DNA of 64,000 bases from Octopus sinensis (lineage: Eukaryota), in contig NC_043025.1 in assembly GCF_006345805.1 (NCBI RefSeq), positions 2,418,001 to 2,482,000 of the forward strand, written 5' to 3'. Position numbers: made by a program. Numbering within the stretch: the stretch's first letter is position 1; every line of letters begins with the position of its first letter. Below, one piece after another: positions 42,501 through 46,100 of the stretch.

Positions 42501-43138
42501 ATCCGATATGCAGCACCTTTAGTATGGCATGTTCCAACATCACAAAATTTTGGAGAAGACCAAGCCATATGTACACATCTTTAAATATTGCACAGATTTC
42601 ACCTCCTACAGTGCTCACTTCTCAAAGCTCTTAGTACCTGGAACATCCAAAATAGCAATCGTAAATGAAATGTTTCTACGTCCTTAGGACTCACTGTGTT
42701 CATTCTGCTGCCGATGTTATTGTTTCTTCTCCCGAGTGTTCACGATCGATCTGTTTTTGAGTAGGTTACTGAGTGTTACCTATGTGAAAGCACAGTCTCT
42801 CACCGTCCTTATTACAACATTTACCATCAACATCGCCATCCTCCTCCCCCTCATCATCATCATCAACATCATCTCGGCCATTTTCTCCTTGTTGGTGTTG
42901 TTGTTGTTGTTATTGTTGTTGTTCTTAACATAACGAAATACATTATAATCGAACCGAGTGAAAACGAGTTTATTGAGCGAGGTGCTTTTTGAAACGTCAA
43001 CTGACGAGAAACATCTGCAAAGAAAGATGCACCGCGGCCAATCGACCATTATCTCATCCGTGAGTGGCCGATTGAAGACGGGTTGAAACGGCAGTAATGA
43101 TTAATGTATCACGTAGAATCCATTTTCCATTTCCGTCA

Positions 43139-43180
<42 letters not shown>

Positions 43181-46100
43181 TGTATGAGTGTGTGAGTATA
43201 CGCTTCGACGTTGGTATGGTTGTGTGAAAACAATTTTGCTTCCGTATTCTGTCCCTCTGCGTGTACTCTGGTCTTCAGCCGAACAATCCCGTGTATGTTA
43301 GTTAATTGGATACAGGGTAACTTAGAAACATGTCGTATATATACGAAGTGGTATCATAAAGTTCCCGGCCGAGTTATGTTTAATAAAAGTAACTTATACT
43401 ACCTGAGTTTTAACTTCATTTCCTTCGGAAAAGTCGACTTGCGAAATAAGACACAAATATGAAACGTTTTCCTTTCTTTTTTTCCTTTTTTCACCTTTAA
43501 CGTCACATATACGGCTCCAGTTCTAACAGATCAATTACTCGGGGCAGCACGTTGAACGCCACCAACGCTCTGGCCGGGTCAATTCAATCCCCGCACATAT
43601 CTCTAAGTTTCTTATAGGTTTCCCTATCGACCACAATGACCTTCACACTCTCTTGGTGCACGTCATTGGACAACTTTTCCCTTATGATGTGCCTGAACTT
43701 TACGATTTCTTTCTCCACTTACTTGTTCTTAGAATACGTCACAAAATTCCATTTTTTCTTACCCCCTTTCGGTCTTCTCCTTTCTTCTTTTACTACTTTT
43801 CTTATTATAGGTTCCTCTATACACTTCTCTGAGTCTGAGACCTTCTCTTTCTCCGTCTTCACCTTTTCCATCTCACCCTCTTGTAGTTGAGTTCTTGAAT
43901 CTTCCTTCAATTCACCTGTCATCTTCATACTTGCTTCCTCCTTCTCTGACTCATTGTCACACACCTTCTTAATTATTTTTTCACTTTCCTTTCCCGCCTC
44001 ACTTTTATCATCTTTCTTTCTCGTTATCCCTTTCTTTCCCACCTCTTCTTTCCTCTTTTTCTGGTTAGTCTGTGGCGGACGTACTCTACCGCTCCTCCTT
44101 TTTCTTTCCACTAGCTTGGAATATTCTTCCGCTGTTTTCTCATTATTCTCTACTGTCAATGCCTGCTCGACACCCTCTTCAGTCTCTCTCTGCTCCCTCG
44201 GTGGACATCTCGCCTTCATGTGTCCCTCCTTGCCACACTCGAAACACACAAGCGGCCTGCCTTCCACCTTCCCTCTCATTGTAACACTATCTCCTCTGCC
44301 ATTCCGTTCATGTCCTCCACTTTAGCCTGGATTGTTAGCTCCAACCCACAGCCCCAGCAGCTTGTTTGCTCTGGTGGCCCTCAATATTCCAGCCTCGTCC
44401 TCCATGTTGTACACAATGGCCGTCACCAGACATGCCTCCTCCAGCTCAGGGGGAACCTGGCTCACCCAAACCCTCACCACACGTCCGCCGCAACAGGATG
44501 GCAGAAGAATCCATTCTTCTGAGCGGACCGCCTCCGTAGCATGCCTCATCGCTTCCTCCTCTGATGTGAAACGCACATCCACAGTTGCATACTCCCTGCA
44601 TCCTGTTCCGAAGGTTATCATCCTTTCATGCCTTCCAACATCCTCTCGATCCCCTCCACAGTTGCTATCTCGATCCTTCCTGTAGCGACCCTCACAGTCC
44701 TGTATGTCACTGTCTTCCTCATAACGCTGTTCACCAGCTCCTCGGGTGGTGTCAATTTCATCTCGCCTTCCCCACTCAGCAGCCTCTCGCCAGCCTTCAT
44801 CCTCCTGGCCTCGACCTCTACTTTAAAAGTCTCCAATGCTTCTCTCCCCGCTTCTCCTCCAGTAGCCCCCGCTGGCGCCTTTTCCATTTTCCTCAATGGG
44901 AAAAATCAACTCAACAAAACTTTAACGATATTAACAACGGTATCAACAACAGCAACAATCAACAATAACTTCACGTTCCACTCACAAATACAACTCAACT
45001 ACAACAACTCGACCTCAAAAACAACACCTATCAACTACAAACTTCTCTACTCAACTCGACTCTACTTCGACGTCTAGACTTCTCCCTCTATATCTACGTA
45101 TTGAGCTAGCCTACTTCATCGTCTGGGGGCGTCCACACAACACAAGTAAAAGAGAGAGGATTGGTACATACATACATACATACTTGCATATATACATATA
45201 TACCTAATGAAGAATAAGAGAATGGTTTCAGCGACTTTCCTTATTCTATATCAATGCAATTGTGTCTACAAATCACATCCGTAGTTCTTGATGAGATCAT
45301 ATAATTTACATCGTGTGTCATCACTACAGTTCCTTAAAGGCGGAACGTAGGACTTATTGAAATACTCACCTGAAAAGCCTGTTTTACACCTCTGATTGAT
45401 GGTAAGGATTACGCAATTTATTAATTATATCATCTGAACCATGTACAATGGTTGTGAAATCATGTATCAATTGTAGTATTATGGAATAAAGAATATCGTT
45501 TAATTCATTCCCTCTTATTCACCTCTGTTCAAAGACGAAAGCGAAAAATGAGAGAAACATAATTTCTCCACAAAGAAAAAACAAACGAGATACAACAACA
45601 GATATTCAAAACGCTTTAGTAGCAGTTTTCCACGCGGGTTTCGAAATCGCAAATCCGAATCGCCACACAATATCACCATACACATACCAGTTGCTGACGT
45701 CACCTAACTCCAGAACAATGAAATTTGACTTACAATCAAAATCGAACTTCAGCGAATACAACAAAATTACCCTTTATGAGAATCAAGCAACTGGAATGGC
45801 TGATGACCGTTCCCCACAGGTAAGCCAACCAGGCAGAATGAAAATCTTGACCACCAGAAAAATAAGACATCAACAAATATCAGATCCTTCACGGAAAAAA
45901 TCGTAAATACACCGGATTCCGAAAAACGCCTTCACAAGCAAAAGACCTGTACACGTCGGTAAGAGAATCACAGAAACTGTAAACAAAAACCCTTTTTTCA
46001 CTATCTTCATTTCTCCCTTGTTTTTCTCCCTCTTGACTCAGTATGGCCGAAACTTTGATACCCCACGTTTCTTATCGATCACTACTAACACTATTGAATG

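What the first reader, a model, noticed from the sequence alone, without database searches (positions are those of the whole stretch)
42798..43462. Paralogous cassette that keeps both intron flanks but has lost the LRR exon
Seen: 42798-42890 matches the sequence just upstream of the exon (22385-22474). It runs directly into a GTT tract and then 42931-43330, which matches the sequence downstream of the exon (23543-23940), followed by the same mariner insertion. The ~875 bp equivalent to 22475-23349, including the exon and both splice sites, is missing. Inference: an exon-bearing cassette was duplicated and one copy lost its exon. Loss of a symmetric 72-nt exon preserves the reading frame.
Basis: partly seen in the sequence, partly recalled or inferred. 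Interest (0 to 1): 0.85.

Follow-up and report, generated by a model that had tools for sequence, protein, structure and literature searches.

The report
Decayed exon-less copy of an intron segment
A stretch at 42.8 kb is a worn, non-coding copy of the DNA around a small leucine-rich-repeat exon at 22.6 kb in an octopus-like genome, without the exon; this is ordinary decay of duplicated intron DNA, and nothing shows the copy ever worked as an exon.

Summary
42798-42890 matches 22385-22474 (92.5% of 93 nt, E 5e-33). 42898-43322 matches 23511-23929 (85.4% of 425 nt, E 1e-136). Between them the 42.8-kb copy has only a (GTT)n tract where the 22-kb copy has 875 bp (22475-23349), which include a 72-nt AG/GT-flanked LRR exon (22579-22650).

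Copying an exon-bearing segment and then deleting (or skipping) the 875 bp is the most economical history. Its polarity cannot be tested here, because no eukaryotic genome was searchable.

New context:
- A third, older copy at 9.0-10.4 kb carries only the distal flank and the same dead mariner, with no exon. The flank-plus-mariner module is therefore a repeat in its own right.
- The exon has a close relative. An Octopus vulgaris predicted protein (P0190) matches it at 21/24 residues and matches a 51-nt exon at 19105-19155 at 16/17.
- P0190 has two LRR exons where the window has one, and it stops directly after this exon.
- Divergence between the two copies is patchy (4% to 19%), and CpG decay is one-sided (9:0).

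Verdict: real, ordinary, low interest.

The parts
42798..42890 (+). A' flank: copy of 22385-22474, the stretch that ends 104 nt upstream of the LRR exon
   Evidence: 92.5% of 93 nt, E 5e-33; 4 differences in 90 aligned nt
42891..42930 (+). (GTT)n tract joining A' directly to B'; corresponds to 23350-23389 in the 22-kb copy
   Evidence: TRF 42889-42923, period 3
42931..43138 (+). B1' flank, CpG-rich (16 CpG in 208 nt, observed/expected 1.72); copy of 23543-23753
   Evidence: 17 differences in 208 nt; 6 of them are CpG here and TpG/CpA in the 22-kb copy
43139..43196 (+). (GT)n microsatellite shared with 23754-23803
43197..43329 (+). B2' flank; copy of 23804-23938 and, more distantly, of about 9030-9145
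   Evidence: 24/126 differences from the 22-kb copy; 30/111 from the 9-kb copy
43330..43454 (-). Terminal piece of a dead mariner (the transposase C-terminal end of the element); aligns with 9146-9265
43455..45159 (-). Unrelated sequence in place of the mariner body; holds a gag-like ORF with a CCHC zinc knuckle (43722-44321)
   Evidence: zf-CCHC E 1.1e-4; no match to the other two copies
45160..45203 (+). TGGTACAT plus (TACA)n: the distal end of the shared unit, matching 24677-24715
   Evidence: 85% of 41 nt
22385..22474 (+). A flank of the exon-bearing copy
22475..23349 (+). 875-bp segment present only in the 22-kb copy; unique in the window apart from simple repeats
22579..22650 (+). 72-nt LRR exon, phase 2 at both ends, AG/GTAAGT; 21/24 identical to residues 128-151 of O. 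vulgaris P0190
   Evidence: (LRR_8 E 2.4e-4, 21.2 bits, below the 27-bit cut-off)
23350..23542 (+). (GTT)n-(CTT)n-(ATT)n microsatellites, expanded relative to the 42.8-kb copy
23543..23938 (+). B flank (B1, (GT)n, B2) of the exon-bearing copy
23939..24686 (-). Dead mariner body; it has lost about 100 nt of its end and its N-terminal part
   Evidence: Mos1 E 4.1e-4
24687..25209 (+). TA/TACA microsatellite that ends the shared unit
9010..10046 (+). Third, older copy of the module: B2 plus the mariner relic (minus strand) plus (TA)n. It has no A, no B1 and no LRR exon
   Evidence: 9064-9252 = 43235-43441, 73.7%; 9327-10046 = 24027-24713, 69.5%
19105..19155 (+). 51-nt exon X upstream of the LRR exon, phase 2 at both ends; 16/17 identical to P0190 residues 87-103

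Best explanation
The block 42798-45203 is a decayed, non-functional paralogue of the roughly 2.8-kb segment 22385-25209. That segment surrounds a 72-nt LRR exon in a plus-strand transcription unit of an octopus-like genome.

Shown:
- Both loci carry, in the same order and orientation, flank A, (GTT)n, flank B1, (GT)n, flank B2, the same dead antisense mariner and a TA/TACA microsatellite.
- The 42.8-kb copy lacks the 875 bp that hold the exon with both splice sites.
- It has also lost the mariner body and gained about 1.7 kb of gag-like sequence.
- A third, older copy at 9.0-10.4 kb has only B2, the mariner and the microsatellite.

Inferred:
- A host segment that already contained the dead mariner was copied locally at least twice. 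The second round copied the exon-bearing segment.
- In the 42.8-kb copy the 875 bp were removed by one plain deletion in T/C-rich, microsatellite-flanked DNA, or were skipped while the copy was made.
- The breakpoints are not splice sites, so RNA processing was not involved.
- The copy has no detectable coding or RNA function and is drifting.
For: - Homology of both flanks: (E 5e-33 and 1e-136) and the blocks.
- Shared mariner and shared host junction in three copies. The same truncation into a TA microsatellite. Independent transposon insertions would not share host flank.
- Mariner identity.
- The 875 bp is unique in the window, with only simple-repeat hits of 86% identity or less over 23-34 nt or of 76% or less over longer stretches. 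It has no terminal inverted repeat and no exact target-site duplication.
- The exon is ancient. P0190 of O. vulgaris has exon X and this LRR exon in the same order, so the exon was not brought in recently between A and B.
- Tree-like distances for B2: 22-kb versus 42.8-kb copy 24/126, and either of them versus the 9-kb copy 30/111.
- The 42.8-kb copy shows other large lesions as well, as expected of unconstrained DNA.
- No RNA family at gathering score in the window, 0 tRNAs, and no unusual fold of B1 (z 0.58 and -1.30).
Against: - There is no outgroup, so deletion versus never-present is decided by parsimony only.
- The 9-kb copy shows that B2 plus the mariner can occur without an exon.
- Divergence is not uniform: A 4/90, B1 17/208, B2 24/126 (Fisher A versus B2 p 0.0017; B1 versus B2 p 0.005). 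One duplication followed by clock-like drift does not predict this.
- CpG decay is one-sided: 9 sites are CpG at 42.8 kb and TpG/CpA at 22 kb, and 0 the other way. That would fit a younger copy drawn from a CpG-preserving source.
- No homology exists outside the unit on either side, as for a mobile unit.
- There is no clean microhomology at the junction. An imperfect 22/31 direct repeat spans both breakpoints, but out of register by 13 nt.
Confidence: 0.6

Rival explanations
1. The shared flanks belong to a dispersed, possibly mobile composite repeat (A, B, dead mariner, microsatellite tail). The 42.8-kb and 9-kb copies are ordinary members with different 5' ends. No exon ever existed at 42.8 kb, and the 22-kb member merely lies around the exon.
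For: - Three copies in 35 kb, all ending in the same TA/TACA microsatellite but starting at different points: A for two copies, inside (GT)n/B2 for the third. This resembles 5'-truncated retroposed copies.
- No homology beyond the unit.
- The 42.8-kb copy keeps CpGs that the 22-kb copy has lost, 9:0, as for a younger copy of a master element.
- The window is packed with other repeats.
Against: - A repeat cannot straddle an old exon unless the exon was inserted into it, and the 875 bp has no insertion hallmarks.
- The exon predates the copies.
- No target-site duplications were recognised at the unit's ends (read).
- Three copies give no power on orientation or copy number.
- Genome-wide copy number could not be measured.
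Confidence: 0.2
2. The whole exon-bearing unit is itself a passenger: a gene fragment captured or duplicated together with repeats. On this reading the '22.6-kb exon' is a relic exon used at most as a terminal exon of a junk-rich transcript, not part of a working LRR receptor gene. The 42.8-kb copy is an internally deleted member.
For: - Only 1 LRR exon was found in 64 kb on either strand.
- The only close relative, P0190, is 151 aa with two LRRs. It ends exactly where reading through this exon's donor gives TTG TAA.
- 11 further O. vulgaris 'hypothetical predicted' proteins share P0190's N-rich start. The different ends of 7 of them map to 35921-36007 (with an internal stop here), 41951-42109 and 47462-47565.
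- A Helitron lies 2 kb downstream.
Against: - The exon keeps an open frame, a canonical LRR pattern and strong splice signals in two genomes or paralogues (21/24 identical).
- Exon X joins it in frame.
- There is no direct evidence of capture. Helitron ends were not defined.
Confidence: 0.13
3. A joined to B is the ancestral state, and the 875 bp with the exon was inserted at the 22-kb copy.
For: The junction at 42.8 kb is clean: A' runs straight into the (GTT)n tract that also follows the 875 bp at 22 kb.
Against: - No target-site duplication, terminal repeats or other copy of the 875 bp.
- It would require an exon with both splice sites and about 800 bp of intron to move as a unit to a spot 3.4 kb downstream of its natural upstream exon X.
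Confidence: 0.05

Closest known systems
LRR domains built from single-repeat, about 72-bp, in-phase exons that duplicate and shuffle (brown-alga ROCO genes; gonadotropin receptor genes)
   Same: One LRR per 72-nt exon with the same intron phase at both ends, so gain or loss of an exon keeps the frame. In passages of PMC11378527 found by term search, each ROCO LRR exon is described as 72 bp and 'phase 2', and all gonadotropin-receptor introns as phase 2. The best PDB sequence matches of the exon peptide include LGR4.
   Different: Only one such exon is present in 64 kb here, against dense arrays there. The sole close relative has two LRRs and then stops. No receptor body, ROC-COR domain or transmembrane domain was seen. 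Membership of any of these gene families is untested.
Exon gain, loss and decay at complex loci after tandem or segmental duplication (for example the Drosophila Gr39a locus)
   Same: Duplicated exon-bearing segments of which some copies decay or vanish. For PMC2204066 I saw only the search listing, title and the start of the abstract.
   Different: There the exons are large alternative first exons with expression data. Here the lost exon is inferred from flanks alone.
Local segmental duplication of intronic DNA that carries a dead Tc1/mariner element
   Same: The host flank and the transposon relic are copied together. Three copies share the same host-transposon junction and the same truncation.
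   Different: The copies are small (about 1-3 kb), 14-20 kb apart and unevenly diverged.

Membership tests
Leucine-rich repeat (exon 22579-22650) | Significant match to LRR profiles and the L..L.L..N.I..I....F..L pattern | tested here: inconclusive
   Pfam LRR_8 E 2.4e-4 but 21.2 bits, below the 27-bit cut-off, because the query is a single repeat of 24 aa. 114 PDB sequences match at E<=10, and the top ones are all LRR proteins. 358 library proteins match at E<=1e-3.
Single-LRR 72-nt symmetric exon class | 72 nt, AG/GT flanked, same phase at both ends, one repeat per exon | tested here: met
   Coordinates read. The frame is 1 nt + 23 codons + 2 nt. Exon X ends with 2 nt (AG), which join the exon's first A in frame.
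LGR / glycoprotein-hormone-receptor genes | An LRR ectodomain of many such exons followed by a 7-TM exon | tested here: not met
   No further LRR exon in the window. The closest relative, P0190, has 2 LRRs and no 7-TM domain. The window may simply be too short.
mariner (Tc1/mariner) element | Transposase with the C-terminal catalytic-domain motif | tested here: met
   ORF 23948-24373(-), residues 58-95, aligns to Mos1 residues 251-292 at E 4.1e-4. Pfam gave 0 families, and 0 of 314 candidates scored in the large protein set, so the element is badly decayed.
mariner (Tc1/mariner) element | Terminal inverted repeats and a TA target duplication | tested here: not met
   The other end is replaced by a TA microsatellite in all copies, and no TIR pair was found. 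The resemblance of the retained end to published mariner ends is from memory only.
Dispersed transposable-element family (for the A-B flanks) | Many copies genome-wide in both orientations, with defined termini and target-site duplications | not testable with these tools
   No eukaryotic genome collection was available. Within the window there are 2 copies of A and B1 and 3 of B2 plus mariner, all in plus orientation.
SINE / small-RNA-derived repeat (for B1) | tRNA, 5S or 7SL-like head, or an Rfam match | tested here: not met
   0 tRNAs. 0 Rfam hits at gathering score. The only E-value hits are 17-19 bits against cut-offs of 65-95.

The most novel reading that the evidence does not exclude
This octopus locus may be running a birth-and-death process of single-LRR, 72-nt, phase-2 exon cassettes, driven by repeat-rich local duplication. 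On this reading the window keeps one live cassette (22.6 kb) and one dead one (42.8 kb), and the O. vulgaris counterpart keeps two live ones. That would be an animal parallel to the LRR exon shuffling described for brown-alga ROCO genes, with the number of repeats varying between close relatives.
Probability: 0.12. Interest if true: 0.5.

Novelty: new member of a known kind. Interest (0 to 1): 0.22.

Why it matters
If the deletion reading is right, the locus is a small, datable example of how repeat proteins lose (and, by the preceding duplication, gain) one repeat at a time without breaking the frame. The O. vulgaris model differs from this window by exactly one LRR exon, so the locus could be checked across octopod genomes. 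As it stands it mainly serves as a caution. Half of the 'intron flank' is a repeated module with a dead mariner, the gene model around the exon is weak, and the exon-less copy is most simply junk.

Tried and rejected
- **Exon peptide in the large protein set.** I did not read through the stop with a changed code. I used tools with lower length limits instead.
- **Mariner ORF in the large protein set.** 0 of 314 candidates scored. Pfam gave 0 families.
- **Taxon from the Helitron helicase ORF.** 1171 hits were scattered over animals and no close species emerged. The octopus link came later, from P0190.
- **Cluster look-up for P0190.** The database was switched off, so the query was not made.
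- **More LRR exons.** I looked with three residue patterns, with tblastn and with a scan of AG...GT windows of 69, 72 and 75 nt. Only 22579-22650 was convincing. The other top score, 52402-52470(-), lies antisense within reverse-transcriptase-bearing sequence and was taken as chance.
- **Splicing as the cause of the 875-bp gap.** Rejected. The missing piece starts with CA and ends with TC, so it has neither GT-AG nor its complement.
- **Recombination between direct repeats.** A 22/31 repeat spans both breakpoints, but the junction is 13 nt out of register. I kept it only as a weak lead.
- **B1 as a structured RNA or SINE.** Rejected.
- **Bacterial promoter/terminator scan of the block.** It has no meaning for an animal genome and was disregarded.
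- **A large collinear tandem duplication linking the 22-kb and 42.8-kb loci.** Other same-strand matches have offsets of 13.5-20.4 kb and inconsistent order, so it was not established.
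Full report
**1. What the window is**

The window has 64,000 bases, no N and 37.6% G+C. It is rich in microsatellites and transposon relics:
- a Helitron on the minus strand at about 27.4-30.8 kb (Helitron_like_N E 1.4e-21, PIF1 E 5e-45);
- reverse-transcriptase fragments at 37817-38467(-) and 52276-52755(+);
- several unnamed repeat families.

A predicted Octopus vulgaris protein and its relatives map to the plus strand. The window therefore comes from an octopus or a close relative, or from a paralogous O. vulgaris region. I did not determine which.

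**2. The observation**

It is confirmed.
- blastn of 42000-45000 against the window gives 42798-42890 = 22385-22474 (92.47% of 93 nt, E 5e-33) and 42898-43322 = 23511-23929 (85.41% of 425 nt, E 1e-136).
- A global alignment places the blocks as A (22385-22474 / 42798-42890), (GTT)n (23361-23389 / 42896-42924) and B (23543-23929 / 42931-43322).
- Nothing at 42.8 kb corresponds to 22475-23349 (875 bp). About 150 bp of (CTT)n and (ATT)n at 23390-23537 also has no counterpart.
- The 72-nt exon is 22579-22650. It is preceded by a pyrimidine tract and AG, and followed by GTAAGT. It lies inside the missing piece.
- The centre of A is ATC-microsatellite-like and has weak echoes at 20.3 and 22.0-22.2 kb. 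Its unique ends occur only in these two copies.

**3. The mariner**

- ORF 23948-24373 on the minus strand aligns to Mos1 transposase residues 251-292 at E 4.1e-4. All 6 PDB sequences found are Mos1 or SETMAR.
- Pfam found no family for it, and 0 of 314 candidates scored in the large protein set. The element is long dead.
- The two copies hardly align with each other across it. The 42.8-kb copy keeps only the element's end (43330-43454). The 22-kb copy has lost about 100 nt of that end but keeps the body.
- A third copy at 9.0-10.4 kb bridges them: 9010-9265 = 43179-43454 (69%) and 9242-10405 = 23942-25069 (64%) (three-way alignment).
- All three copies share host sequence (B2) up to the same junction with the mariner, and all three run out in a TA/TACA microsatellite. 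The 42.8-kb copy retains TGGTACAT plus (TACA)n at 45160-45203, matching 24677-24715.
- Independent transposon insertions would not share host flank and truncation point. The module B2-mariner-microsatellite was therefore copied as a piece of DNA at least twice.
- Between 43455 and 45159 the 42.8-kb copy holds unrelated sequence with a gag-like CCHC zinc-knuckle ORF.

**4. Is the exon real?**

- The 24-residue translation matches LRR proteins: Pfam LRR_8 at E 2.4e-4 (below the cut-off for a single repeat), and 114 PDB sequences at E<=10 led by designed LRR proteins, LGR4, LRRC4B, decorin and Slit2.
- A search of 1.84 billion representative proteins with the 36-residue open frame around the exon found 358 proteins at E<=1e-3.
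- Among the 150 listed, only P0190 is close, at 21/24 identical. The next best is 71% identical over 21 residues.
- P0190 (151 aa) is named by NCBI as an Octopus vulgaris protein, under a low-complexity-driven kinase name.
- Its residues 87-103 match window 19106-19156 at 16/17. This defines a 51-nt exon X at 19105-19155, with AG before it and GT after it. Exon X ends with two bases that join the first base of the LRR exon in frame.
- The exon therefore sits in a conserved exon order on the plus strand.

Three points weaken the gene model:
- P0190 carries two LRR exons after X (residues 104-127 and 128-151). The window has a counterpart only of the second one. The first (13/24 identical to our exon) was found nowhere in the window.
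- P0190 ends exactly where reading through the exon's donor gives a stop, as it also would in the window.
- Eleven further O. vulgaris 'hypothetical predicted' proteins share P0190's N-rich first 86 residues, which are absent from the window. Seven of them have other C-termini that map, in order, to 35921-36007 (with an internal stop here), 41951-42109 (87% of 53 residues) and 47462-47565. This looks like one transcription unit with many alternative terminal exons among repeats.
- From passages of PMC10700109, one O. vulgaris annotation combined transcripts, protein alignments and ab initio predictions. I do not know which evidence underlies P0190.

The joined product of X and the LRR exon was not built or searched.

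No other LRR exon was found in the window by residue patterns, tblastn or a scan of AG...GT windows.

**5. How the exon-less copy arose**

- The 875 bp is unique in the window apart from simple repeats.
- It has no terminal inverted repeats and no exact flanking duplication.
- Its ends are not splice sites.
- The exon predates the copies (section 4).

The simplest history is that an exon-bearing segment was copied and the copy lost, or never received, the 875 bp. The loss would be an ordinary deletion in T/C-rich DNA next to a (GTT)n tract. An imperfect direct repeat (22/31) spans both breakpoints, but 13 nt out of register. The 8-mer TCACCGTC sits both at the left edge of the shared block (22387, 42800) and exactly at the left breakpoint (22474). 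There are 5 occurrences of it in the whole window on both strands. I cannot say whether this is more than coincidence.

**6. What does not fit a single clean duplication**

- Differences between the two copies are 4/90 in A, 17/208 in B1 (13 in its first 86 nt and 4 in its last 122, counted from the alignment) and 24/126 in B2. Fisher tests give A versus B2 p 0.0017 and B1 versus B2 p 0.005.
- A and the 3' part of B1 are as similar as the large 49-kb-spaced duplication of the window ends (92/2323 differences).
- CpG decay is one-sided. Nine sites are CpG at 42.8 kb and TpG/CpA at 22 kb, and none the other way.
- B1 at 42.8 kb has a CpG observed/expected ratio of 1.72, against 0.84 for the window.
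- For B2, the distances of both copies to the 9-kb copy are equal (30/111 each).

Possible readings are later gene conversion over A and B1, methylation confined to the exon-proximal copy, or the 42.8-kb copy being a younger product of a CpG-preserving source. The last would favour the repeat-family rival. These remain unexplained.

**7. Comparison with known cases**

- Single-LRR 72-bp in-phase exons that duplicate, shuffle and are alternatively spliced are described for brown-alga ROCO genes. The same passages note the in-phase LRR exons of gonadotropin receptors (PMC11378527, passages found by term search).
- Exon gain and loss at duplicated complex loci is also in print. For PMC2204066 I saw only the search listing, title and the start of the abstract.
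- The present case works like these. Membership of any particular receptor family is not shown: no receptor body was seen, and the nearest relative has only two repeats.

**8. Verdict**

The sequence relationship is real and well beyond chance. Half of the 'flank' is a repeat module that also occurs without an exon. The exon-less block shows no sign of function.

What stayed unchecked:
- genome-wide copy number of the flanks;
- orthologous loci;
- transcripts;
- the cluster members of P0190 (database off).

I asked for no supplementary file of any paper. The supplements of PMC10700109, which were not seen, might show what evidence lies behind models such as P0190.

Noticed in passing
1-17075 and 48972-64000: The two ends of the window are copies of each other at about 95-96% identity (92/2323 differences in one 2.3-kb block), same orientation, about 49 kb apart. 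The match is interrupted by a non-homologous stretch (2969-10955 versus 54353-58750). The 9-kb mariner module lies in the first copy's private stretch and has no counterpart in the second. This is either a recent large tandem duplication or, less likely in a gap-free stretch, an assembly duplication.
   Followed up: partly
19156-22578: The O. vulgaris model P0190 has an extra LRR exon (residues 104-127) between exon X and the counterpart of the 22.6-kb exon. No trace of it was found in this 3.4-kb interval, which is largely (ATC)n, (TTC)n, (CTT)n and (TCA)n tracts, nor anywhere else in the window. This is a one-exon, in-frame difference between the two loci.
   Followed up: partly
35921-36007, 41951-42109, 47462-47565 (+): The C-terminal ends of other O. 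vulgaris 'hypothetical predicted' proteins (P0271/3/6; P0278; P0272/7/9) map here in order, at 76-91% identity. The first has an internal stop in the window. Their shared N-rich N-terminus is not in the window. This suggests one plus-strand transcription unit with many alternative terminal exons.
   Followed up: partly
22385-23929 versus 42798-43322: Divergence is patchy (4%, 8%, 19% for A, B1, B2) and CpG decay is strictly one-sided (9 versus 0). B1 at 42.8 kb is CpG-rich, with observed/expected 1.72 against 0.84 for the window.
   Followed up: partly
27462-30362 (-): A Helitron with Rep (Helitron_like_N) and PIF1 helicase domains, split over several frames and so probably dead. The best relative in the protein set is 68% identical and unnamed. 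A second Pif1_2B fragment lies at 57798-58346 (+).
   Followed up: partly
42130-42688, 13660-14216, 60976-61531: An unnamed repeat of about 560 bp (81-83% identity), same orientation in all three places, ending 110 nt upstream of the A' flank. No Pfam hit for its ORF 42113-42454.
   Followed up: no
1298-2344, 31826-33007, 49793-50951: Another repeat of about 1.1 kb in three same-strand copies (80-81% identity between the old copies). Nearly all inter-locus repeats in the window share the plus orientation.
   Followed up: no
22387, 22474, 42800: The 8-mer TCACCGTC marks both the left edge of the shared block and the left breakpoint of the 875-bp gap. There are 5 occurrences in the whole window on both strands.
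   Followed up: no
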